Shown here: piece after piece, positions 22,192-55,787 of the stretch | Layout: the number at the start of each line of letters is the position of its first letter | How positions within the stretch are numbered: the first letter of the stretch is position 1 | Source: Candidatus Latescibacterota bacterium | Lineage (GTDB): Bacteria > JAAXHH01 | Direction: 5' to 3' | Assembly (NCBI GenBank): GCA_022821085.1 | Contig: JAJEEG010000006.1 | Span: 268,405-332,404, forward strand | DNA length: 64,000 nt | Position numbers and translations under genes: made by a program | Notes under the pieces: model-generated | Databases searched by the model: none | What the model was told of the DNA's origin: nothing | The model's input: the letters and a program-made list of their open reading frames with translations, nothing else

Positions 22192-24750
22192 CTACTCATC
22201 CCCGCCGCTCTGTCGCTGCTGCTCGAACTTCACGTCGGGATGGGCCACCAGGTTGATCCGGAAGTAGAACCCCTTGTTGATGCCGTTCGGCACCCACCGG
22301 AAGGTAAACTCCCAGCAGTGCAGCGGACGGTAGAGGTCCACGCTGTGGGAGACGATTTCCTTGCGGCGGTAGTCGTAGTTGATGGAGTGCTGCACGCGCC
22401 ATTTGTCGGTGACGCGGTTGGTCAGCCTGAGCAGGTCCGTGATGTCGTTCAGGGCGAACCGGTTCGTGGCCCGTATCTCGTGACGGCTGGTGGTGAATCC
22501 CTCCTCGGCGTCTGGATTCGAGCGCCGGATCGAGTAGTGGTGGGAGAGCCGGACCGTCCAGGGACCCTTGACCTGGGAGAACCGCTGGTCGAACCGGTCG
22601 TCGCCGTACCCGCCGTACCCGCCGTAGTCGTTGAACCCGCCGCCCGAAAAGCTGCTGCCCCCGAAGCTGCTCCCGCCCAATCCTCCGCCGGAGTAGTCGT
22701 CATACCCGCCGTAGGCGCCGCCGAACTCGCCGTCCCCGAGTTCATTACCGAATTCGTCCCTGCGCGGCCCCACGAGGTTGAGGGACGTGCTGAGCGTCAT
22801 GCGGTCCAGCCAGGGCCGGCGTAATTCGTCGGTTTCCGGATCGTAGAAATCGTGGTTCAGCGACAGATCAACGTTCAGCCGGCGGCTCGGGATGCGCACG
22901 GTGGTCCGCAGGTCCGCGAACTTCCGGTCCTCGGCCTGGAAATCGTAGGACGTCGACGATTTGACGTACACCAGGTTGTACTTCTTCTCGCGGCCCTCGT
23001 GTTCGGTCCTGGCCTGCAGGATGTTGTTCACGGAGAAACGCATCGTCTTCCGGACGCGCGCCCCCCCGGTCCCCCCGGACTGGGAGAAGTTGATGTCGGG
23101 CGTGACCACGTGCCGAATGGCGTTGAGCCGGCCGATCTTGGGCTGGAAGAGCCCGTAGAGCGTCGTGTTGACCGACATGCCCACCGTGTGGTCTTCCTTC
23201 TGTTCCCAGTTACCCTCGGTTTCCGGGTCGGTATCCTGCTCCCAGGTTCGGCCGTACCGGGCCTGCGGGCGGATCTTCAGCCAGCCCCCGATCTTCTGCG
23301 GCGCACTCAGGGTAAAGTCGTTGTCGAAGGTCCGGATGGATGCGTGCGTGTAGTGGTAACGGGTATCCGGACCCGTATGGGTCGTGTCCCGGTCGCCCCG
23401 TATGTTATTCCTGCGGTTCCGCAGCGTGTTGTTGAAACCGAACATGATAGTGTGGAACCAGCGATCCTCGATCTGCGTGCGGGGCTGGCTGAAGTCGGGC
23501 ATACTGCCCCGCCGCGTCTGCCTGCGGGGCGGCTTGAAGATCGCCTTCGTCCCGAAGCGGAACCGAAGCGTGGTGGTGGGCCGGCTCGGCTGGCCGGTCC
23601 GGCCGCTCGTGGACGTGCTCAGGTTGAGGCTGTTCCGCCCGAACTTCTTGTCGATCGCGAAGGATGAACGCGTCGTGGACCGCAGGAGTCCGGGGTCCGT
23701 CCCCCGCGTCGTCGAATGCAGGTACTGCAGCGATTGGGCGAAGTTGCCCTGCCCGCGGATCGTCAGGTCCGGGATCACTTCCTGCCGGTGCCGGGCGGTC
23801 ACGTCCCAGCCGGTCGTCGTCCCGTCGAAGCCTCTCCGCCACGAGCCGCTCGCCGAGCCCGTGAGCCGGCGGTCCTGCCGGTACTGGAACCTTTGCCTTA
23901 GCAGGAACCCGGTCTTGGCCTCGATGTCGGCTGTGGTCTTCATGTCGAAGTACTCGTTCGGCGCCCAGTAGTAGCCCAGGTTGCGCAGGTACCGGCCTTC
24001 CTCCACGCCGCTGCCGTAGTTCGGCACCGTGAGCCCGGACTGCCGGCCTTGCTTCACCGAGAAGACGTAGACGGGGAGATAGACTATGGGTATGCCCATG
24101 ATGTAGCCCGTCACGTTCCGGACGACCGCCTTGTCTTCGGGGACGACTTTCGCCTCGCCCATTTTCAGATAGTAGTGCAGGTGGTTCGGGTTGTCGCAGG
24201 TGGTGTAGGTGCCGTCGTGGATCTCGAAGGTCCGGTCGGCGTTGAGCGTGATGAGTTCGCCGTTGAAGAACCCTTCCTGGTACTGGGTGCGGCCCTTCCA
24301 GATCTGCCCTTCCCCGGTTTTCATGTCGTACTGCATGCGGTCCCCGACCACGACGTTCATCTCGTCCTGCAAACGGGGATAGGTATTGGTCTCGGGATCG
24401 ATGTCCGGCGACGGGGGCAGGAAGTCCGCGGTCAGCAGTTCGGAGTAGGTATGGAATCGCAGTCGCCCGGCCGTCAGCTCGACGTCGCCGTACTTCACAT
24501 AGGCGCTACCGATCATCACCATCATGGTGTCGGGGAATACGTACTCGATGCGTTTCGCATTGTAGTCGATCGGTGGCAGTCCGGTCGTATCGGCCTCGGC
24601 GCCGGCCCCGATCCCCATGCCGCCGGAAGGGAACTGCGCGAAGGCCGCCCCGGGAGCACGGCCGGCCAGCAGCAGACCGGCCGCCAGCAGAAAGATCGAA
24701 AGCCGGCCGGCCGGCAATAAACAGGCCTGCAATAAACACACCGGCAGCAA
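22192..24750 (-). CDS. LptD (OstA)-like outer membrane protein
   Basis: Signal peptide. OstA-like N-terminal beta-jellyroll region (ADTMMVMIGSAYVKYGDVELTAGRLRF). Long beta-barrel-like remainder with a Gly/Tyr-rich insert. Family assignment is tentative. Confidence 0.55.
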   Translation of the reverse strand: MLPVCLLQACLLPAGRLSIFLLAAGLLLAGRAPGAAFAQFPSGGMGIGAGAEADTTGLPPIDYNAKRIEYVFPDTMMVMIGSAYVKYGDVELTAGRLRFHTYSELLTADFLPPSPDIDPETNTYPRLQDEMNVVVGDRMQYDMKTGEGQIWKGRTQYQEGFFNGELITLNADRTFEIHDGTYTTCDNPNHLHYYLKMGEAKVVPEDKAVVRNVTGYIMGIPIVYLPVYVFSVKQGRQSGLTVPNYGSGVEEGRYLRNLGYYWAPNEYFDMKTTADIEAKTGFLLRQRFQYRQDRRLTGSASGSWRRGFDGTTTGWDVTARHRQEVIPDLTIRGQGNFAQSLQYLHSTTRGTDPGLLRSTTRSSFAIDKKFGRNSLNLSTSTSGRTGQPSRPTTTLRFRFGTKAIFKPPRRQTRRGSMPDFSQPRTQIEDRWFHTIMFGFNNTLRNRRNNIRGDRDTTHTGPDTRYHYTHASIRTFDNDFTLSAPQKIGGWLKIRPQARYGRTWEQDTDPETEGNWEQKEDHTVGMSVNTTLYGLFQPKIGRLNAIRHVVTPDINFSQSGGTGGARVRKTMRFSVNNILQARTEHEGREKKYNLVYVKSSTSYDFQAEDRKFADLRTTVRIPSRRLNVDLSLNHDFYDPETDELRRPWLDRMTLSTSLNLVGPRRDEFGNELGDGEFGGAYGGYDDYSGGGLGGSSFGGSSFSGGGFNDYGGYGGYGDDRFDQRFSQVKGPWTVRLSHHYSIRRSNPDAEEGFTTSRHEIRATNRFALNDITDLLRLTNRVTDKWRVQHSINYDYRRKEIVSHSVDLYRPLHCWEFTFRWVPNGINKGFYFRINLVAHPDVKFEQQRQSGGDE

Positions 24751-24997
24751 CCCCGTAACACCCGCCCATTTACTTTTAACTTTACATTTATTATAATGAA
24801 TGTTAATAATGAGCCTCAGTGACCTTTGGCATCGTGTTGTCCTGAACGCTCGGACCGTTTAAGATCGGAGATTCAGGGCGGTTTCTTCAAGTCCCTGCGT
24901 AATCTAAGTTAAACGGGTTAGCAGGCAAAGCGTTTCGTTTCAACGCCCTGAAGGGGCTTAAAGCCCGATGGACAAAAGAATTAATGAAGAAAACCGG

Positions 24998-25026
24998 TTG
25001 ACACGCCGGATGGCCGGCACTATACT
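24998..25026 (+). promoter_or_regulatory. consensus sigma70-type promoter (TTGACA-17 bp-TATACT)
   Basis: A perfect -35 and a 5/6 -10 with a 17-bp spacer. It lies about 320 nt upstream of the OMP gene at 25349. The intervening segment is rich in hairpins. Confidence 0.4.
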
Positions 25027-25348
25027 TGCAATTAGTATGGCCGTTTCGGGCGGAATCCCCGTGGACGCGGGGGCTTCCCCGTGGGCGGCCGGACGCGATT
25101 CCGGCCTGCCATGCTGACACCATCGAATTCGCTATCCGTCTTTAGAAGCATGGCGAATGTACGGTCGCCATCCGGGACGGCCTCGCGAAGCCGGTTCTTT
25201 GAAAACTTATACGGTCAGTTGAGTTTATGGTTGCAAAGGGCACGTAAAGAATTGTGTTGCAACGAAATAAAAAGATTCATTTTTTCCTTGCATTATCGAA
25301 GTGAATCATATTATATGGGTTCAAAACCCGTACTTTTCGTGAGGAGAT

Positions 25349-25837
25349 ATGGCAAGAATCGTATTTCTTTTGATTGCCACGCTTGCATGTGGTGATGCAT
25401 ACGCCCAGTTGGACATGAACCTGGGCGTGTCCGGCAGCAGGCCCTATTCTTGTCTTACGGATCTCACCGATTCAGGGATCGGGTACGGCGTTCGGGTCGA
25501 AATGGCTGCGGATTTGAACGACCGGTTTCAGTTCATTGGCAACTTGTCGTATGATCGGCACAACAGCGACTATTCGTCCCTCCCGGTCATGGCCGGGTTG
25601 AGGATGTCCACCACATCGGATGACGACATGTTCTGTTACGTCCAGGCCACGGCGGGAAGCTCGTACCGGGTCATGGGCGACGAAGAAAGCAGGACGACTT
25701 GGATTGTGAACGGCGGTATCGGTACGGTGTGGAACAGGCTGGGCGCGGTTGTGGAGTACAACATTTCAGACGATGCAGCCGACAAGTGGAGTTGGGTATC
25801 AGTTCGTACATTCTTGAGGTTACCACTCGGTTTTTAG
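25349..25837 (+). CDS. small outer-membrane beta-barrel protein
   Basis: Signal peptide (LLIATLACGDAYAQ). Alternating amphipathic strands. Ends in an aromatic residue (LPLGF). SD gaggagat upstream. Confidence 0.6.
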   Translation: MARIVFLLIATLACGDAYAQLDMNLGVSGSRPYSCLTDLTDSGIGYGVRVEMAADLNDRFQFIGNLSYDRHNSDYSSLPVMAGLRMSTTSDDDMFCYVQATAGSSYRVMGDEESRTTWIVNGGIGTVWNRLGAVVEYNISDDAADKWSWVSVRTFLRLPLGF

Positions 25838-25943: not shown

Positions 25944-27398
25944 ATGCATTACTTCATAGTAGTACTGATTGCGTTCGCTCTCAGTATGTATGGATGCGAA
26001 GGTAAGACGGGTCCGGCGGGTCCGACCGGTGCCGCAGGCGCCGCAGGTCCGGCAGGTCCGGCTGGCCCGCAGGGTTCGACTGGTCCGGCAGGTCCGGCAG
26101 GTCCGGCAGGCCCCCAGGGTCCGGCTGGTGCTGATGGTGCCGATGGTGCCGCAGGTCCGGCAGGTCCGGCAGGTCCGGCAGGTCCGGCAGGTCCGGCAGG
26201 TCCGCAAGGTGAGAAGGGCGACACCGGCGAGCAGGGTCCGGCGGGTGCAGGCGCCGATCCGGGTGCTATCCAGGACATCGTTGATGGCGTCATCGGAACT
26301 GGTGTCCTGGCGGACATTCACCACATCCTGCTGTTGAAGGATGGTGAAACAGATCCTAAAAAAGGTATGGCGATAGATGTTGCAGGCGTGGCAGTTGGCG
26401 CCGAGATCGCCAGCGTGAACGTTGGCGTACTTGTAGGGGCATCCACATCTTATGTGGCCAAGGTTGCGACCGTCAGTGGACAGCCGATTCCCGCTACGCT
26501 TACCTGGACATCCGACGACGAGGAAGTAGCCTCGGTGGATGACGGTACGATTACAGGTAATAGAAGGGGATCAGCGACGGTAACCATGGCCGTAGATGGT
26601 CGTGGCATTGAAGTTGATTTCAAGGTAACCGTCCACGACGTTGTCAAGGGTATCATCGCTATTGCTGCCAGTGATACCAGGCTTGCAGTGGGTGATGAGG
26701 TTACAGTTAACGCTACTGCCTATGATGCCGCACAGACCGATGCTGCGGGCGCCGAAGGTAACGAGGTTCCCAATATAACCTTTACCTGGATGAGCTCCAA
26801 CGAAGCCGTGGCAACCGTGGATGAAGATGGCGTGGTGACTGCCAAGGGCGCCGGAAGTGCTGATATTACGGCCCACGTAGGCGACGTTAAGAGTAACAAG
26901 GTCGGAGTCACTGTATTCGACGTTCTGACTGTCGAACGCAGGATACGTGTAACCAACCTTCCCATCTCAGGGACGTATATCGCTGTCGGAGATACGCTTA
27001 TTTCTGACAGCAGCGTAGTTGCAGATGGATCTGAATCTGGTAGCGTCGGCGCTATCAATGTGGTTGTCGAGCAGTTCGATCCGACTTCTGGTGCAAGTGG
27101 AGCTTGGGCAGCTGTTACTGGCACTGATACTATGGTGAAGTACACAAGTCTGGATACAGACGTGATTACTTTTGCCGAAACCACCTCCAATACTGATGCC
27201 ACTCCCTATATGGGTACGGCTAGTATTGCTACCGATGGCAGCGGTAACGCCAATATGCCTGCGTTTACACACGATAATAGCGCAAACGGTAAGGTGGCAG
27301 GTCGAGGCACTGCCAGAATTGAGATTTCCACCCAATATGCTGATTCGCGCTATATTGAGATCATAGTATCAATTCCCTCTACCCACAAGGCCCCCTAA
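25944..27398 (+). CDS. lipoprotein with collagen-like stalk followed by Big_2 Ig-like domains
   Basis: Lipobox YGCEG followed immediately by about 95 residues of G-X-Y repeats ([10 protein letters not shown]...), then Big_2-type domains. Contains a perfect 9-bp tandem repeat. Confidence 0.8.
26151..26204. repeat. perfect 9-bp tandem repeat (gcaggtccg x6) encoding (AGP)n inside the collagen-like gene
   Basis: Six identical head-to-tail units, with three more related units at 26086-26112. Confidence 0.9.
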
Positions 27399-27518
27399 CC
27401 ACAGGATGAGTGGCTATACATTGATGAAGAAAGGTTATTGCCACTCAACAGGTCTTGGAGGGTAGCAGAGCAGAAACGCACGACAAATACAGAATACACA
27501 GTTGAACCGTGTATCTTC

Positions 27519-27580
27519 CCGTCCGTCCTTAGTAGGAGCTTTAGCGACCGAACAGGGCGGACGGTTTTTTTTGTGTTTTT
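27519..27580 (+). terminator. probable rho-independent terminator after the collagen-Big_2 gene
   Basis: ccgtccg...cggacgg stem followed by ttttttttgtgttttt. Confidence 0.45.
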
Positions 27581-27787
27581 CCGCCAGATCCCTCCCTCTT
27601 GACTAAGCCCCTCATGAAAGTTACTTTCTGCGTCGCGGCGTTTCATGGTTCCGGTTGCGTTATGCCGACGTGCCGACATACCCGGTAGACCGGGAATCCT
27701 TGCGCCGTGGTTTGGTATTGCATTGAATGCACCGTTTTGTGGAACGAATTTCATAGCCGATAGCGGCAACATCCGGAGGTCTCCATC

Positions 27788-28711
27788 GTGCTACGCCACC
27801 TCGCCAGGCTGTTACTCTTTCTTGTATTTCTAGGCTGTGAGGGACCGACGGGTCCGGAGGGTCCGGCCGGACCGGCGGGGCAGGCCGGCGCCGCCGGTCC
27901 GCAGGGTATCCAGGGTCCGGCGGGACCGCAGGGCGAACCCGGGGAGACGCTGGACTGGTCGGACGTAATCGAGACCGAGAATCTGGGGGACGCGGTCTAC
28001 GCGATCGGGGTGCAGATCCAGGGGAAGAACTACGTGCTGGGTTCGGGTTTCGTCGCACACTTCACAAATGCCGTCTGGACCAATGCCCGCGTCGTTCAGG
28101 CCGTCCTCATTTCGACCACGTTTATCGACCACCTCAACCCGCGGGCCTTTGCCGTCAAGTCGGGCACGGAGATTGGCGGCGCCGACACGTACTGGCTGGA
28201 GAACTACTGGGTTCATCCCGACTACGACGGCACAGCCGGCTCGCCCGACGCGGCCCTGCTCATCATCGACGCGAACCTGACGGACCTGCCGTTCTTCCTG
28301 CCCAGGGACCAGGCCCAGGGCCTGCGCGCGGGACAGCCCATCGGTACGATCGGGTTTCCGGAGGAAGAAACGGGCGAGTCCGTCACGGTCCCCATCGCCA
28401 CGTTCAATGGCGGCACGATCGGCGCGCTGAGGCCCTTCGAAGACGCGGTCCCCACGCCGGCGAACAGCCGGATCATCCAGCATGACCTGGACAATTCCGG
28501 CCGAACGAGCGGCAGTCTCATTTTTGATCACTCGGGATACATCGTCGGGATGAATTTCGCCGGGATCTTCCGGGTCGCCTACGACGCCCGGACCGGGGAG
28601 CCCACGCGCGTTCCGTCGGGAAACCCCGGCCTCGCCGTCCGCGTGGACGAGCTCTGGCGCCTCTACGACCTGGCAAGGGGGAGTGGGCGCCAGGTCGTGC
28701 TACTTCCCTAG
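27788..28711 (+). CDS. lipoprotein with collagen-like stalk and trypsin-like (S1/Trypsin_2) domain, possibly non-canonical
   Basis: Lipobox LGCEG followed by about 35 residues of G-X-Y repeats. Then GSGFV...TNARVV (Arg where the catalytic His is expected), DAALLIID (Asp box) and GRTSGSLIF (Ser box). Confidence 0.65.
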   Translation: MLRHLARLLLFLVFLGCEGPTGPEGPAGPAGQAGAAGPQGIQGPAGPQGEPGETLDWSDVIETENLGDAVYAIGVQIQGKNYVLGSGFVAHFTNAVWTNARVVQAVLISTTFIDHLNPRAFAVKSGTEIGGADTYWLENYWVHPDYDGTAGSPDAALLIIDANLTDLPFFLPRDQAQGLRAGQPIGTIGFPEEETGESVTVPIATFNGGTIGALRPFEDAVPTPANSRIIQHDLDNSGRTSGSLIFDHSGYIVGMNFAGIFRVAYDARTGEPTRVPSGNPGLAVRVDELWRLYDLARGSGRQVVLLP

Positions 28712-29069
28712 CAGGACTTTCCGCACCTAGCCTTCAGATCCTACCCAGCCTTCAAACCCTTCCCGGATAGATGGAACGGCGAGGCGGAACTTTCGTAACA
28801 CAGGATTCCGGCCTGATCGCTAACGATCCGGAAGCGCTGGCGGTATGTGTTTGTGCCTTCCTCCCCTCCCATGCTCAAATAACCACATTTTAACCCCATA
28901 ACATCACGCTTAAATTATATGTCAAGGTATTGAAACAGATGATACCTGGCTATGGGTGATTTTATGTTGTAAATCCAAATATGATGCATACTTTGATCAT
29001 TCCACTTTGCAGAATGTTAGTCGAAAACTCGAATGTAATGCCGACCACACCGGTCCCGGGGAACGTCCT

Positions 29070-30968
29070 ATGAATATCCGTCCTTTGAAGCGTCTGTACA
29101 TAACGACCTTCTCAAGTTTCAGTACTGTATTTTTGATCACGGCCTGTCTGGTCCTGGTCACCTGCGGCAAGGACAGCACGACGAAGCCTGCGGCGCCTGA
29201 ACCGCCTCCGCCCGCAACACCCGCGCCGCCGCCCCCGGCGCCCGTACCTACCCGGATTACGATCACCCCTTCGTCCGTTTCGCTCAACTCCGTTGGCCAG
29301 ACCATGCCCTTGACGGCCAAGGTCTTCGATCAGAACAACGCGGTGCTCGGCAGTGCAACAGTTTCGTGGTCCAGCAGCGACGAGGGCGTGGCGACGGTCG
29401 GCAGCCGGGGGTTGGTCACCGCCGTCTCGAACGGTACGGCGACCATCACGGCGAGTTCAGGCATCGCTTCTGCGACCGCGGCCGTCACGGTGATGCAGTC
29501 CGCAAGCCGCATCGTCCTTGAGTCGTCCTCGGCAACGCTTGTGTCCCTCGGGGAAACCGTGCAACTCACCGCCACTGTGCAGGATGCGAACGGTCAAGCA
29601 GTAGACGGCGCGGCTGTAACCTGGTCGAGCAGCGACGAGGGCGTGGCGACAGTCGGCGCCCAGGGCTTGGTCACGGCAGTCTCGAACGGCAGCGCCACGA
29701 TCACGGCCAGATCGGGCAGCGTTTCTGCGACCGCGGCCGTCACGGTCATGCAAACCGCCCACGGAATCGTCCTTGAACCGCAGATGGCGACGCTCACCAG
29801 GGCCGGCGAGACCGTGCAGCTGGCCGCGGCCGTACTGGACCTGAACGAACAGCCCGTGGACGGCGCCACCGTCTCATGGGCCAGTAGCGACCCGGGCGTC
29901 GCGGCGGTCGACGATGATGGACTGGTGACGGCGGTTGCGAACGGCAGCGCCGGGATCACCGCGTCTTACGGCGACATATCCGCCACGGCCCGGATCGAAG
30001 TGGAGATCGCCGACCCGGGCGATAGAGACGCGTTGATTGCGCTGTATGTCGCCCTTGACGGACCGAACTGGACGTATAATACCAACTGGCTGTCCGACCT
30101 GCCTCTGGGTGAGTGGTATGGCGTGGGCACCGACGACACTGGAAGAGTCACCTGGCTGAGTCTCGCCTTCAACGAACTCAGCGGCGCCATTCCTTCGGAA
30201 CTGGGCAATCTGGCCAAACTGGAGGAACTCAATCTTAGCCAGAATCGGTTGTCGTGCGTGATTCCACCTGAATTGGGGAACCTGACCAACCTGTACGGGC
30301 TCTACCTTTACTCCATTCCGATCTTGCCGGCGGTCTTTCCGCCGGAGTGGGATCCTGTCCCCGACCCGGCTTGCCGCATCCCTGCCGAGTTGGGGAACCT
30401 GACCAACCTGGAGGAACTGAGGCTTGGCCTCAGAACGCTGTCTGGCCGCATTCCTGCCGAGTTGGGGAACCTGACCAACCTGCAGGTACTGGATCTCCGC
30501 TTCAACGCATTGTCCGGCGGCGTGCCGCCGGAACTGGGGAAGCTGCCCAACCTGTATTCGTTGAATCTCGGTTTCAACGCGTTATCTGGCAGCATCCCTG
30601 CCGAGTTGGGGAATCTGGCCAATCTGATGGAACTGAACCTGACCCTCAACGCGTTGTCGGGCAGCATCCCGCCTGAGTTGGGCAACCTGGCCGGCCTGGA
30701 AGTGCTGGAACTTGGCTTAAATGCGTTGTCCGGCAGTGTCCCGCCTGAGTTGGGAAACCTCTCCGAACTCACATATCTTTCTTTGGTTTACAATGAGGAC
30801 CTGTCGGGTCCGCTGCCCGCCACGTTCACCAACCTCAACTACCTGGAGGGGTTGGATCTGTCTTATACCGGCTTGTGCGTGCCGCCGGAACCTGCGTTCC
30901 GGGCGTGGCTGGAGCGGTTTCAGGCTGCCGATCAAGTGGTGTACTGCGGAGGGATGCAGGGCGGTTAA
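29070..30968 (+). CDS. Big_2 + LRR surface lipoprotein (paralog family)
   Basis: Start placed at the ATG (29070) that gives the signal peptide/lipobox LVTCGKDS. Pro-rich linker. Four Big_2 domains (VPTRITI...). About 9 LRRs. C-cap GLCVPPEPAFRAWLERF...C. Confidence 0.75.
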   Translation: MNIRPLKRLYITTFSSFSTVFLITACLVLVTCGKDSTTKPAAPEPPPPATPAPPPPAPVPTRITITPSSVSLNSVGQTMPLTAKVFDQNNAVLGSATVSWSSSDEGVATVGSRGLVTAVSNGTATITASSGIASATAAVTVMQSASRIVLESSSATLVSLGETVQLTATVQDANGQAVDGAAVTWSSSDEGVATVGAQGLVTAVSNGSATITARSGSVSATAAVTVMQTAHGIVLEPQMATLTRAGETVQLAAAVLDLNEQPVDGATVSWASSDPGVAAVDDDGLVTAVANGSAGITASYGDISATARIEVEIADPGDRDALIALYVALDGPNWTYNTNWLSDLPLGEWYGVGTDDTGRVTWLSLAFNELSGAIPSELGNLAKLEELNLSQNRLSCVIPPELGNLTNLYGLYLYSIPILPAVFPPEWDPVPDPACRIPAELGNLTNLEELRLGLRTLSGRIPAELGNLTNLQVLDLRFNALSGGVPPELGKLPNLYSLNLGFNALSGSIPAELGNLANLMELNLTLNALSGSIPPELGNLAGLEVLELGLNALSGSVPPELGNLSELTYLSLVYNEDLSGPLPATFTNLNYLEGLDLSYTGLCVPPEPAFRAWLERFQAADQVVYCGGMQGG

Positions 30969-54647: not shown

Positions 54648-55787
54648 TCAGTTGAGCCGGAGCATGAACATCACGCGAAGCCGCGTTCGCCAGGCGTTGT
54701 TGGCCGCGGGGGACACGAGTGTTTCGGGGGAATCGTACTTTCGGGTATACACGTGGGTATAGACCGTCAACTTCTCGATGAGATGATGGGCGAAAAAGAG
54801 GGCGGCGCCCTTCGTATTGGTCTGCGTGTAGTCGATGTTGCTGAACGGCGCCAGCGTGGCGTCCTGCTGCATGAGGAAAGCCTGGACCCCGGCCTGGGTG
54901 TCGCCGACCTTACCCGTGCCGCCGTACATCAACGAACCCGTGATACCGTGGCGCATGTCGTCGGCCCCGGTGTTGAATACGTAGTCGGCGTTCAGCGCCA
55001 GCGGCCGTCCGTTCACGGTCTGGGTGTACTGGCCGCTTAAGTTGATCATCCGGAATTTAGACAGGTAACCGGTGCGGTCCGCGTTGGGCCGGTTGGAATT
55101 CGCCGCGACGATCGGCGCGGGGGACCTGAGGTTTTGCGCGGCGAAGAGGGAATCCGCGCCTCCCACGGTATAAATGGCGGCTGCCAGCGTCTGCGACCTG
55201 CCCGGCTGGTCGAAACGGACCACGAACTGTCCGCCCAGGAAATAGGTGCGGTCGAGGTCCTTCACCGGCGAGGCCAGTTGGTTGATCATGAACTGGCCGA
55301 AATTCATGCCGAAGGTCGTGGAGCCGTCAGCGCTCTTCGTGGTGATCTGCTGGGCCAGTCCCTCCGGCGAGAGATCGCTGTCCAGGACGACCTGGGTCGG
55401 ACGGAAGAAGGGCAGGGGGAACTTGCCCGCGGTCAGGGTGAGCGTGGGATTGAGCCGGATGCGCGCGTACATCCAGGAGATATGGGGGTTTTCGCGTACG
55501 AACAGGTCGCCGTAACCCATCCAGTCGGCCACGGTGATGGCCTTGGGATTGCCCGTCATGACCTTGCCGGTTACGTCGATGCGGTCCGACACACGCAACG
55601 TGGCATTCAGGAAGGCCCCGTACATGAAACGATTGACCGCGCGGCTGCCGTCCTGGTAGTCGCCCTGCAGCCGCGACCTGATCATGCCGTTCCAGGTGAA
55701 ACGGCCATCTTCCTGGCCTGCCGCGGGAGCGGTGTTGAAGAGCACGGCAATCGTGCTGGCACACAACAGGATGTATCTGGTCCGCAT
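54648..55787 (-). CDS. putative porin-like outer-membrane protein
   Basis: ATG at 55787 gives the signal peptide MRTRYILLCASTIAVLFNTAPAAGQ. Beta-rich sequence with a C-terminal aromatic residue (FMLRLN is weak). The longer N-terminal extension from the 56003 start is not supported. Confidence 0.45.
   Translation of the reverse strand: MRTRYILLCASTIAVLFNTAPAAGQEDGRFTWNGMIRSRLQGDYQDGSRAVNRFMYGAFLNATLRVSDRIDVTGKVMTGNPKAITVADWMGYGDLFVRENPHISWMYARIRLNPTLTLTAGKFPLPFFRPTQVVLDSDLSPEGLAQQITTKSADGSTTFGMNFGQFMINQLASPVKDLDRTYFLGGQFVVRFDQPGRSQTLAAAIYTVGGADSLFAAQNLRSPAPIVAANSNRPNADRTGYLSKFRMINLSGQYTQTVNGRPLALNADYVFNTGADDMRHGITGSLMYGGTGKVGDTQAGVQAFLMQQDATLAPFSNIDYTQTNTKGAALFFAHHLIEKLTVYTHVYTRKYDSPETLVSPAANNAWRTRLRVMFMLRLN

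What the first reader, a model, noticed from the sequence alone, without database searches (positions are those of the whole stretch)
24998..25348. Consensus sigma70-type promoter driving a hairpin-rich ~320-nt untranslated segment (candidate sRNA or leader)
TTGACA-17 bp-TATACT at 24998-25026 is a near-perfect promoter. Downstream are several perfect local stems (ccccg/cgggg, ggccgga/tccggcc, gttgcaac, gggtt/aaccc followed by Ts) and no convincing ORF, until the outer-membrane barrel gene at 25349. That gene has its own possible promoter (ttgcat...tattat) just upstream. The segment could be an independent sRNA or a long regulatory leader of the OMP gene. OMP genes are classic sRNA and attenuator targets.
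Basis: partly seen in the sequence, partly recalled or inferred. Interest (0 to 1): 0.5.

Follow-up and report, generated by a model that had tools for sequence, protein, structure and literature searches.

The report
Conserved promoter plus boxA-type leader
The flagged promoter is real and conserved, but the RNA it makes is most likely a long leader of the outer-membrane-protein gene rather than a separate small RNA: its conserved core matches the boxA site of ribosomal RNA operons, and the hairpin-rich part is a dispensable, fast-evolving spacer.

Summary
TTGACA-17-TATACT (24998-25026) is one of only two sites matching the consensus at 11 of 12 or better in the 64 kb. It is kept in all 22 distinct homologous LptD–OMP intergenic regions, from sponge/coral-associated MAGs labelled Latescibacterota or Gemmatimonadota. 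No Rfam family matches, and no reading frame is conserved.

The GC-rich, hairpin-rich part (25039-25178) is missing or truncated in 14 of 21 relatives. It evolves at least as fast as 4-fold sites of the adjacent gene. Its excess fold stability (z -2.6) is not shared by homologues. Only the first hairpin is retained.

The constrained parts are:
- the promoter and the 12 nt after it;
- GGTTCTTTGAAAAC-TTATACGGTCAG (25193-25218);
- a proximal promoter-like block, TTGCAT-15-TATTAT (25288-25314).

The 14-mer matches the boxA consensus GYTCTTTAANA at 10 of 11 positions. In a metagenome sample of the same 14-mer, at least 25% of occurrences lie just upstream of 16S or 23S rRNA. No conserved terminator separates the promoter from the OMP gene.

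Best reading (about 0.5): an rrn-style, Nus-factor leader of the OMP operon. An independent sRNA is unlikely. Transcription and Nus binding are inferred, not shown.

The parts
22192..24750 (-). Divergent upstream gene, an LptD_2-family outer-membrane LPS-assembly protein. It defines the left edge of the intergenic region.
   Evidence: Pfam PF19838, E 2.2e-50. The same gene lies upstream in most homologous loci, for example L022, L026, L030 and L154.
24778..24817 (.). Conserved AT-rich block holding a minus-strand promoter-like site (TTAACA-16-TAAAGT, probably for LptD) and overlapping plus-strand sites.
   Evidence: Promoter scan; conserved in the alignment.
24837..24865 (+). Upstream promoter-like site 'P1'. 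It reads TTGTCC-17-TAAGAT in the window and TTGACC/TTGACT-16 to 18-TATACT/TATATA/TAAGAT in relatives.
   Evidence: Alignments. The window's own copy is degenerate in the -35 hexamer.
24970..24994 (+). A-rich stretch (GGACAAAAGAATTAATGAAGAAAAC) immediately upstream of the -35 hexamer, possibly an UP-like element.
   Evidence: AAGAAT...GAAGAAAA is conserved in the alignment. The UP-element function is inferred.
24998..25026 (+). Promoter 'P2': TTGACA, 17 nt, TATACT. This is the flagged promoter.
   Evidence: Matches 11 of 12 and is one of two such sites in 64 kb. Across 22 leaders: -35 TTGACA in 20 of 22, -10 TATACT in 22 of 22, 17-nt spacer in 19 of 22, with spacer identity only 0.72.
25027..25038 (+). 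Nearly invariant TGCAATTAGTAT after the -10 hexamer. The transcription start is predicted at about 25033-25035. With the -10 it forms the inverted repeat ATACT-N7-AGTAT, a possible operator.
   Evidence: Identity 0.95 across 21 relatives; coordinates. The start site and any operator role are inferred.
25039..25178 (+). Variable, GC-rich, hairpin-rich domain. It is dispensable and evolves fast.
   Evidence: Present in only 7 of 21 relatives and removed by a nested series of deletions. Identity is 0.54-0.61 to distant relatives, against 0.74-0.83 at 4-fold sites of the OMP gene. Fold z is -2.6 here but +0.47 to -1.10 in homologues. RNAalifold finds no compensatory pairs.
25046..25081 (+). Hairpin H1 (UCGGGCGGAAUCCCCG...CGGGGGCUUCCCCG), the one stem of the domain kept in every leader that retains the domain.
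   Evidence: All 9 homologous segments fold into the same single hairpin, z -0.3 to -2.9. The deletion variants L010, L024 and L001 keep a shorter capped hairpin at this position.
25087..25106 (+). Hairpin GGCCGGA/UCCGGCC, specific to the window's own clade.
   Evidence: Kept in win, L021, L007 and L008; replaced by other sequences in L006 and L011-L013.
25178..25193 (+). Short hairpin (CGGC-loop-GCCG) abutting the boxA-like element, in a boxB-like position.
   Evidence: A 3-5 bp stem with a GNRA-like loop occupies this position in about 15 of 21 relatives. rRNA leaders in the metagenome sample show the same hairpin-then-boxA arrangement.
25193..25206 (+). boxA-like element GGTTCTTTGAAAAC, the candidate NusB/NusE binding site on the RNA.
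   Evidence: The only occurrence in the window. Matches GYTCTTTAANA at 10 of 11 positions (consensus from PMC5725501). Identity 0.96, present in 20 of 21 relatives. At least 30 of 122 metagenomic occurrences of GTTCTTTGAAAACT lie in rRNA leaders or spacers.
25207..25236 (+). Conserved sequence after boxA: TTATACGGTCAG, then the G/U-rich TTGAGTTTATGGTTGCAA. It occupies the spacer/boxC-like position.
   Evidence: Identity 0.94 and 0.79. The boxC analogy is an inference.
25229..25263 (+). GGTTGCAA ... GTTGCAAC pair. It could be an RNA hairpin or two copies of a palindromic DNA site.
   Evidence: Sequence read directly. L023 lacks the second copy. No T-run follows directly, so it is not a terminator.
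25274..25318 (+). Proximal promoter-like site 'P3': invariant GATTCATTTTTTCC-TTGCAT, a variable 15-nt spacer, and invariant TATTAT-ATGG.
   Evidence: Identity 0.95, 0.76 and 0.98 for the three parts. TTGC[AG]T-15-TATTAT is found in essentially all leaders. The consensus scan missed it because of the 15-nt spacer.
25314..25340 (+). Hairpin GGGTT/AACCC plus CTTTTCG. It looks like a terminator in the window only.
   Evidence: Terminator-like hit. The helix is broken in L021, L006, L010 and L011. It lies downstream of the P3 -10 hexamer.
25341..25837 (+). Shine-Dalgarno GAGGAG and the 162-aa small beta-barrel OMP gene (ATG at 25349).
   Evidence: Pfam OMP_b-brl, E 4.5e-6. AlphaFold model is an all-beta barrel. 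Foldseek matches OmpA transmembrane domain, Ail, OmpX, PagL and NspA. 40 homologues were found.

Best explanation
The flagged site is a functional, strong sigma70-type promoter (P2). It is one of up to three tandem promoters (P1, P2, P3) in the LptD–OMP intergenic region. Its transcript is not a free-standing sRNA but a long 5' leader that runs into the small beta-barrel OMP gene, and probably into the collagen-like, Ig-like, protease and LRR genes behind it.

The leader has three parts:
1. A 5'-proximal hairpin followed by a lineage-variable, GC-rich spacer that can be deleted without loss.
2. A short hairpin directly followed by an rrn-type boxA (GGUUCUUUGAAAAC) and a conserved flank.
3. A fixed-length stretch of about 140 nt that carries the proximal promoter and the ribosome-binding site.

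Proposed mechanism, by analogy with rRNA operons, suhB and CRISPR-array leaders: NusB/NusE (S10) bind boxA on the nascent RNA and, with NusA, NusG and SuhB, convert RNA polymerase into a Rho-resistant form. The long untranslated leader and the downstream genes are then transcribed without premature termination.

Shown here: the sequence elements, their conservation, and the dispensability of the hairpin domain. Inferred: the transcription start, read-through, Nus binding and antitermination.
For: - Promoter. 11 of 12 match and one of two such sites in 64 kb. In 22 distinct leaders the -10 is kept in 22 of 22, the -35 in 20 of 22, and the 17-nt spacing in 19 of 22, with a variable spacer sequence.
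- boxA motif. GTTCTTTGAAA matches the experimentally derived consensus GYTCTTTAANA at 10 of 11 positions (PMC5725501). It occurs once in the window. It lies on the same strand as P2 and the OMP gene. Identity is 0.96 and it is present in 20 of 21 relatives.
- boxA spacing. The distance from boxA to the ATG is constant (153-160 nt), while all length variation lies upstream of it.
- Independent test of the 14-mer. Another 13 lie in the 16S-23S spacer or upstream of 23S. A further 19 sit at contig ends. Many are preceded by a GC hairpin, as here.
- rrn architecture from the literature. boxB, boxA and boxC lie just after promoter P2; boxA is necessary and sufficient; boxB is dispensable (PMC10250234, PMC2724277). 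This matches a dispensable hairpin domain upstream of an invariant boxA.
- Non-rRNA boxA sites are documented (PMC5725501, PMC7665894).
- Terminators. No conserved terminator lies between P2 and the ATG. No plus-strand terminator-like site occurs until about 31273.
- Coding. The segment is noncoding.
Against: - There are no transcript data, so the start site, read-through and the relative use of P2 and P3 are unknown.
- The boxA call rests on sequence identity only. 73 of the 122 metagenomic occurrences of the 14-mer were not demonstrably in rRNA operons, so the motif alone is not proof.
- The rRNA-operon boxA of these same organisms could not be retrieved for comparison.
- One lineage (L028/L029) has lost boxA altogether, L022 has a degraded copy, and L001, L024 and L031 carry single substitutions in the core. 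It is therefore not indispensable.
- The conserved blocks could act at the DNA level. The -10/+1 region forms an inverted repeat, and TTGCAA hexamers recur.
- The OMP gene has its own conserved proximal promoter, so a long leader is not strictly required for expression.
Confidence: 0.5

Rival explanations
1. P2 drives an independent trans-acting small RNA of about 250-300 nt, possibly regulating OMP mRNAs. It would end at the GGGTT/AACCC hairpin plus T-run, or by Rho or processing upstream of the OMP gene.
For: There is a strong conserved promoter with an invariant initial transcribed sequence. In the window a terminator-like hairpin plus T-run lies at 25314-25340. The plus strand folds better than shuffles (z -2.6) and the minus strand does not (z -1.2). 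The OMP gene has its own promoter-like site.
Against: The only terminator-like element lies after the P3 -10 hexamer, so it would also terminate P3 transcripts. Its helix is lost in L021, L006, L010 and L011. No other conserved stem followed by a U-tract exists. The body of the putative sRNA is deleted in most relatives and evolves at a neutral-like rate. The constant boxA-to-ATG spacing ties the conserved part to the gene. There is no Rfam match.
Confidence: 0.12
2. The conserved blocks are DNA-level control elements only: promoters, UP-like A/T tracts and transcription-factor operators for the OMP and LptD genes. The boxA match would then be coincidental, and the transcribed leader would have no RNA-level function.
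For: The conservation pattern is invariant short blocks separated by variable spacers of fixed length, as in promoters and operators. An inverted repeat ATACT-N7-AGTAT spans the -10/+1 region, and TTGCAA occurs at 25026, 25231 and 25257. There is little covariation support for RNA structure. Sixty percent of the 14-mer occurrences in metagenomes were not demonstrably rRNA-linked.
Against: The chance of a 10-of-11 or better match to the boxA consensus somewhere in a 320-nt leader is about 0.02 (my estimate from base frequencies of 1/4). It falls exactly in the most conserved block, in the sense orientation, directly after a hairpin, as in rRNA leaders. No known operator motif was identified.
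Confidence: 0.2
3. The hairpin-rich domain (25039-25178) is itself a functional structured cis-regulatory RNA, such as a riboswitch, thermosensor or attenuator, controlling the OMP gene.
For: The window copy has fold z -2.6. Hairpin H1 is retained in all copies that have the domain. One G-U to U-A compensatory pair occurs within the window's clade.
Against: The domain is absent or truncated in 14 of 21 relatives through at least six different deletions. Its sequence identity is no higher than at 4-fold sites. Homologues show no excess stability. RNAalifold gives a covariation term of +0.44 with no compensatory pairs. There is no Rfam hit and no alternative terminator/antiterminator pairing.
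Confidence: 0.06
4. The segment encodes a small secreted protein, for example the 49-aa ORF at 24968-25117 or the longer open frames seen in relatives.
For: Open frames of 77-105 codons exist in several relatives, and the window ORF has a hydrophobic N-terminal stretch.
Against: The frames differ between relatives because of 1-nt indels. The same conserved block is read as GSLKTYTVS in some relatives and as RFFENLYGQ in the window. Substitution counts by codon phase are flat (12/8/6 and 9/8/7). There is no Shine-Dalgarno sequence, although this organism uses strong ones. The ORF runs through the promoter hexamers.
Confidence: 0.02

Closest known systems
rRNA-operon (rrn) leader antitermination site: tandem promoters P1/P2 followed by boxB, boxA and boxC, which assemble the NusB/NusE/NusA/NusG/SuhB complex
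   Same: Tandem consensus-like promoters. A hairpin immediately 5' of a boxA. A boxA core identical to the GTTCTTTGAAAACT found upstream of 16S and 23S genes in many bacteria, and matching the E. coli-derived consensus at 10 of 11 positions. The hairpin part is dispensable while boxA is conserved, as reported for rrn (PMC10250234, PMC2724277).
   Different: The downstream genes encode proteins (an OMP and surface proteins), not rRNA. No leader-trailer helix partner is expected. There is a second, proximal promoter between boxA and the gene. Whether it matches this organism's own rrn boxA is untested.
Non-rRNA boxA targets of the Nus complex: the suhB 5' UTR, a ParE-like toxin gene, and CRISPR-array leaders
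   Same: A boxA in the leader of a non-rRNA transcription unit. For CRISPR arrays it serves to protect a long untranslated RNA from Rho (PMC7665894).
   Different: In suhB the boxA lies within about 50 nt of the start codon and represses translation (PMC5725501). Here it is about 143 nt upstream. Neither paper, as far as I read them, mentions an OMP operon or this phylum.
Long structured 5' UTRs of major OMP mRNAs (for example E. coli ompA), whose 5' hairpins stabilise the message (from my own knowledge, not checked here)
   Same: A leader of several hundred nucleotides before an OmpA/OmpX-like barrel gene, with a hairpin retained close to the predicted 5' end (H1).
   Different: There is no sequence or Rfam relationship, and most of the structure is not conserved here.
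Hfq-dependent OMP-regulating sRNAs (MicA, RybB, MicF, OmrA/B)
   Different: There is no own terminator, no Rfam match and no conserved body. The RNA is in cis and co-oriented with the gene rather than a separate antisense or trans-encoded gene.

Membership tests
rrn-type boxA (NusB/NusE site) leader | Sequence match to the boxA consensus (GYTCTTTAANA in gamma-proteobacteria; variants in other phyla) | tested here: met
   GTTCTTTGAAA at 25194-25204 matches 10 of 11 positions, with G instead of A at position 8 (consensus from PMC5725501). The exact 14-mer is found in 16S leaders (17) and 16S-23S spacers (13) among 122 metagenomic occurrences.
rrn-type boxA (NusB/NusE site) leader | Located on the sense strand of a transcribed leader, downstream of the promoter and upstream of the transcription unit it serves | tested here: met
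   It lies 167 nt downstream of the conserved P2 -10 hexamer, on the same strand, 143 nt upstream of the ATG, and the boxA-to-ATG distance is constant in relatives. Transcription itself is inferred.
rrn-type boxA (NusB/NusE site) leader | Conservation of the element under purifying selection | tested here: met
   Identity is 0.96 and it is present in 20 of 21 relatives, against 0.69-0.77 for flanking variable parts. It is lost in L028/L029 and degraded in L022.
rrn-type boxA (NusB/NusE site) leader | Same boxA present in the organism's own rRNA operon leader and spacer | not tested
rrn-type boxA (NusB/NusE site) leader | Binding of NusB/NusE and Rho-resistant elongation | not testable with these tools
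   Needs biochemistry or genetics.
Sigma70-type promoter | -35 and -10 hexamers at 16-18 nt, conserved across relatives with a free spacer sequence | tested here: met
Sigma70-type promoter | Mapped transcription start | not testable with these tools
   No RNA data. Short Logan contigs gave no 5'-end information.
Independent trans-acting sRNA gene | Own conserved intrinsic terminator or other defined 3' end | tested here: not met
   The only hairpin plus T-run (25314-25340) lies after the P3 -10 hexamer and is not conserved.
Independent trans-acting sRNA gene | Conserved RNA body or membership of a described family | tested here: not met
   Rfam gives no hit at gathering thresholds in 64 kb and only chance-level hits at E up to 10. 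The body is deleted in most relatives.
Riboswitch or attenuator leader | Conserved aptamer or alternative-structure core supported by covariation | tested here: not met
   RNAalifold covariation term is +0.44 with no compensatory pairs. Homologues show no excess stability. The domain is dispensable.
REP/MITE-like repeated palindromic element (as origin of the GC-rich domain) | Multiple dispersed copies, terminal inverted repeats and a target-site duplication | tested here: inconclusive
   There is no second copy in the 64-kb window and no target-site duplication is visible. Divergence tracks species divergence, which suggests vertical descent. Whole genomes could not be scanned.

The most novel reading that the evidence does not exclude
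An rRNA-operon-style expression module (tandem strong promoters, a boxB-like hairpin and a consensus boxA) has been co-opted in uncultivated sponge/coral-associated Latescibacterota-like bacteria. It would drive a surface-protein operon of a small OMP followed by collagen-like, Ig-like, trypsin-like and LRR 'eukaryote-like' proteins. That would put host-interaction genes under Nus-factor processive antitermination, a regulatory target class not mentioned in the two Nus-factor target studies I consulted.
Probability: 0.35. Interest if true: 0.55.

Novelty: new member of a known kind. Interest (0 to 1): 0.4.

Why it matters
If the boxA reading is right, it extends Nus-factor antitermination beyond rRNA, suhB and CRISPR arrays to an outer-membrane and surface-protein operon, in a candidate phylum known only from metagenomes. 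It would also mark this operon as one the symbiont needs to express strongly and completely.

Practically, the invariant blocks (P2, boxA and its flank, P3) give a compact, testable regulatory module and a sequence signature for finding similar leaders.

The result is also a caution. The eye-catching hairpins were the least constrained part of the region, and comparative data were needed to find the part that matters.

Tried and rejected
- Rfam, whole window at gathering thresholds and the intergenic region at E up to 10: nothing credible. No tRNA or tmRNA.
- Coding hypothesis: rejected.
- Repeat or mobile-element origin of the GC-rich domain: no other copy in the window. This could not be tested genome-wide.
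- Global conserved RNA structure. RNAalifold on 8 full-length leaders gave a weak consensus with no compensatory pairs. Clade-wise folds disagree with each other. Homologues are not more stable than shuffles. A formal pair count for H1 was not attempted because the register differs between clades, so only per-sequence folds are reported.
- GATTCA/TGAATC and GGGTT/AACCC pairings: not conserved.
- Sigma54 and Bacteroidetes-type promoter motifs around P3: no match by eye.
- Using short Logan contigs as proxies for transcripts to locate 5' ends: uninformative.
- Literature. Full-text searches for the boxA sequence string returned irrelevant papers. Arnvig et al. 2008, on boxA across phyla, is not held. 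My recollection that Gram-positive rrn boxA reads UGUUCUUUGAAAACU is therefore unverified from the literature; I replaced it with the direct metagenome test.
- Search for the lineage's own extended boxA block or P2 block among the 120 metagenome loci: none found.

Full report
**What is there**

The flagged segment lies in a 598-nt intergenic region (24751-25348). On one side is a divergently transcribed LptD_2-family gene (22192-24750, minus strand; Pfam E 2.2e-50). On the other is a 162-aa gene at 25349-25837. That gene has a signal peptide, a sub-threshold OMP_b-brl hit, a predicted all-beta barrel, and fold matches to the OmpA transmembrane domain, Ail, OmpX, PagL and NspA.

The distance from the end of the -10 hexamer to the ATG is 322 nt. 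TTGACA-17-TATACT scores 11 of 12, and only one other site in the whole 64 kb, on either strand, does as well.

**Origin and comparative material**

Homologues of the OMP come from metagenome-assembled genomes labelled Candidatus Latescibacterota or Gemmatimonadota. Latescibacterota belongs to the FCB group. The host or source labels of these MAGs were read from record names only; I did not check them further.

I collected the upstream regions of 13 genome loci and further ENA, Logan and JGI contigs. This gave 22 distinct leaders that share the LptD–OMP arrangement. OMP protein identity to the window ranges from 94% down to about 65%.

**The promoter is real by comparative criteria**

Across the 22 leaders:
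- the -10 TATACT is invariant (22 of 22);
- the -35 is TTGACA in 20 and TTGACG in 2;
- the spacer is 17 nt in 19, yet its sequence is free (identity 0.72).

This is the signature of a working sigma70-type promoter. The 12 nt after the -10 (TGCAATTAGTAT) are almost invariant as well (0.95). Together with the -10 they form an inverted repeat, ATACT-N7-AGTAT, so an operator cannot be excluded.

**The hairpin-rich segment is the least constrained part**

- Presence. The sequence between the promoter block and position about 25179 is a nested deletion series across relatives. It ranges from about 150 nt (win, L021, L006-L008, L011-L013), through intermediate forms (L005, L026, L010, L024, L030, L031, L001), to about 10-20 nt (L002-L004, L009, L022, L023) and none (L028/L029). 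It is present in only 7 of 21 relatives. The window's close relative L001 (OMP 94% identical) already lacks it.
- Rate. Where present, its identity to the window is 0.82-0.83 for L007/L008 and 0.54-0.61 for L006 and L011-L013. That is no higher than identity at 4-fold degenerate sites of the adjacent OMP gene (0.74-0.83).
- Stability. The window copy folds better than shuffles (z -2.6), but the homologous domains do not (+0.47, -0.66, -1.06, -0.19, -0.51, -1.10).
- Covariation. RNAalifold on the eight full-length leaders gives a weak consensus with no compensatory pairs.
- Exception. The first hairpin (H1, 25046-25081) forms the same single stem-loop in all nine homologous segments (z -0.3 to -2.9). 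Several deletion variants keep a shorter hairpin there.
- Coding. The segment is not coding. Frames are not conserved, and substitutions show no codon periodicity.
- Databases. No Rfam family matches, and no second copy of the domain exists in the window.

**What is constrained downstream**

Three blocks stand out:
- GGTTCTTTGAAAAC (25193-25206; identity 0.96, present in 20 of 21) with its flank TTATACGGTCAG (0.94);
- GATTCATTTTTTCC-TTGCAT (0.95);
- TATTATATGG (0.98).

The last two are separated by a variable 15-nt spacer (0.76), which is a promoter-like signature. The distance from the first block to the ATG is constant (153-160 nt), whereas all length variation lies upstream of it.

The GGGTT/AACCC hairpin plus T-run, which looks like a terminator in the window, lies after the P3 -10 hexamer. 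It is not maintained in L021, L006, L010 or L011. No conserved terminator therefore separates P2 from the gene. No plus-strand terminator-like site occurs before about 31273.

**The conserved block looks like a boxA**

GTTCTTTGAAA matches the experimentally grounded boxA consensus GYTCTTTAANA at 10 of 11 positions (PMC5725501).

I could not read the phylum-wide boxA survey, so I tested the motif directly. Classified by position:

| Position of the 14-mer | Occurrences |
|---|---|
| Within 700 nt upstream of a 16S 5' end, same strand | 17 |
| In the 16S-23S spacer or upstream of 23S | 13 |
| At a contig end, downstream sequence unknown | 19 |
| Other | 73 |

Since rRNA leaders and spacers are a tiny fraction of any genome, this is a very large enrichment. 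It shows that this exact 14-mer is a widespread rRNA-operon boxA. Many of the rRNA examples have a GC hairpin directly before it. Compare GGGGCGAAGCGACGCC-GGTTCTTTGAAAACT in L149 with GGCCTCGCGAAGCC-GGTTCTTTGAAAACT in the window.

In rrn operons the order is boxB hairpin, boxA, boxC, just after promoter P2. BoxA is necessary and sufficient for assembling the Nus complex, boxB is dispensable, and the complex counteracts Rho-dependent termination (PMC10250234, PMC2724277). BoxA sites outside rRNA operons are established for suhB and CRISPR-array leaders (PMC5725501, PMC7665894).

**Best explanation and its limits**

P2 is one of up to three tandem promoters. A further conserved promoter-like site, P1, lies at 24837-24865. 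P2 most likely produces a long leader of the OMP transcription unit. The working part of that leader is an rrn-type boxA, which recruits Nus factors and protects the long untranslated leader, and possibly the roughly 5.6 kb of downstream surface-protein genes, from Rho. The GC-rich hairpin domain is a tolerated, decaying spacer, with at most a 5'-hairpin (stabilising or boxB-like) role for H1. I put this at about 0.5.

- Shown: the sequence elements, their selective constraint, the dispensability of the hairpin domain, the absence of a conserved terminator, and the rRNA-operon identity of the 14-mer in other bacteria.
- Inferred: the start site, read-through, Nus binding and antitermination.
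- Weaknesses: no RNA data; the organism's own rrn boxA could not be checked; one lineage lost boxA and a few carry core substitutions; 60% of metagenomic occurrences of the 14-mer were not demonstrably rRNA-linked.

**Rivals**

- Independent sRNA, about 0.12. It lacks a conserved 3' end and a conserved body.
- Purely DNA-level regulatory blocks with a coincidental boxA match, about 0.2. This cannot be excluded without RNA-level experiments.
- A functional riboswitch- or attenuator-like domain, about 0.06. Its dispensability argues against it.
- A small protein, about 0.02. The frame analysis excludes it.

**Novelty and interest**

If correct, this is a new member of a known kind: a non-rRNA boxA leader, here in front of an OMP and surface-protein operon in an uncultivated FCB-group lineage. 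It is moderately interesting (0.4).

Noticed in passing
window 24837-24997: A second conserved promoter-like site (P1, TTGACC/T-16 to 18-TAnAnT) is followed by invariant blocks: TAATCTAAG (24900-24908) and a 13-nt palindrome, GGCGAAAGCGTTTCGTC in relatives. The window has the variant GCAAAGCGTTTCGTT at 24925-24939. Some genomes (L002-L005, L011, L013, L022) carry an extra insert of 50-170 nt here. Its function is unknown.
   Followed up: partly
window 24880-24891; L006 and L154-L163 upstream regions: About 15 nt after the P1 -10 hexamer lies a degenerate boxA-like GGTTYCTTY motif. It reads GGTTTCTTCAAG in the window and GGTTCTTTCAAATC in the L006 species, the latter matching the boxA consensus at 10 of 11 positions. 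This may be a second, weaker boxA or a trace of a duplicated promoter-leader module.
   Followed up: partly
window 25022-25038, 25026-25031, 25231-25236, 25257-25262: An inverted repeat ATACT-N7-AGTAT spans the P2 -10/+1 region, and the palindromic hexamer TTGCAA recurs three times in the leader (with TTGCAT at P3). These are possible binding sites for an unidentified regulator.
   Followed up: no
window 55928-55900 (minus strand): This is the only other site in the window matching the sigma70 consensus at 11 of 12 or better (TTGACA-17-TAAAAT). It lies about 110 nt upstream of an ATG at 55787 (minus strand) that opens an ORF with a signal-peptide-like N-terminus.
   Followed up: no
window 25944-30968: The genes after the OMP encode 'eukaryote-like' surface proteins: collagen triple-helix repeats plus Big_2 (25944-27398), collagen plus a trypsin-like peptidase (27788-28711), and Big_2/Big_1 plus leucine-rich repeats (28956-30968). 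A gene follows the OMP on the same strand in most relatives; where Pfam hits are recorded for it they are Big_2 or Collagen.
   Followed up: partly
L014-L019 (MAG CBDAUD01, contigs 1 and 2): One genome carries at least six paralogous copies of the OMP gene (65-75% identical to the window's), several close to contig ends. Each is preceded by a strong terminator-like hairpin (AAAAGACCCGTAGCCGGTAACGGGTCTTTT) instead of the promoter and boxA leader.
   Followed up: no
L027 versus L028/L029: The same OMP protein (P0032) occurs in two contexts. One has the short leader that lacks boxA (L028/L029). The other is a copy flanked by ISL3-family transposase genes, which shares only the last 60 nt or so before the ATG (L027). 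This suggests a recent IS-associated duplication.
   Followed up: no
L023, L025, L031, L158, L163: In some strains the LptD–OMP intergenic region is enlarged to 1.2-1.9 kb and holds extra called ORFs of 180-470 aa with no Pfam hit (for example a 212-aa ORF at L023 1955-2593). In L158 and L163 the neighbouring genes are also different from LptD.
   Followed up: no
L021 1-2421: In the window's closest relative the LptD gene is called as two ORFs (329 and 503 aa). This indicates a frameshift, either a pseudogene or an assembly error in a low-coverage long-read contig.
   Followed up: no
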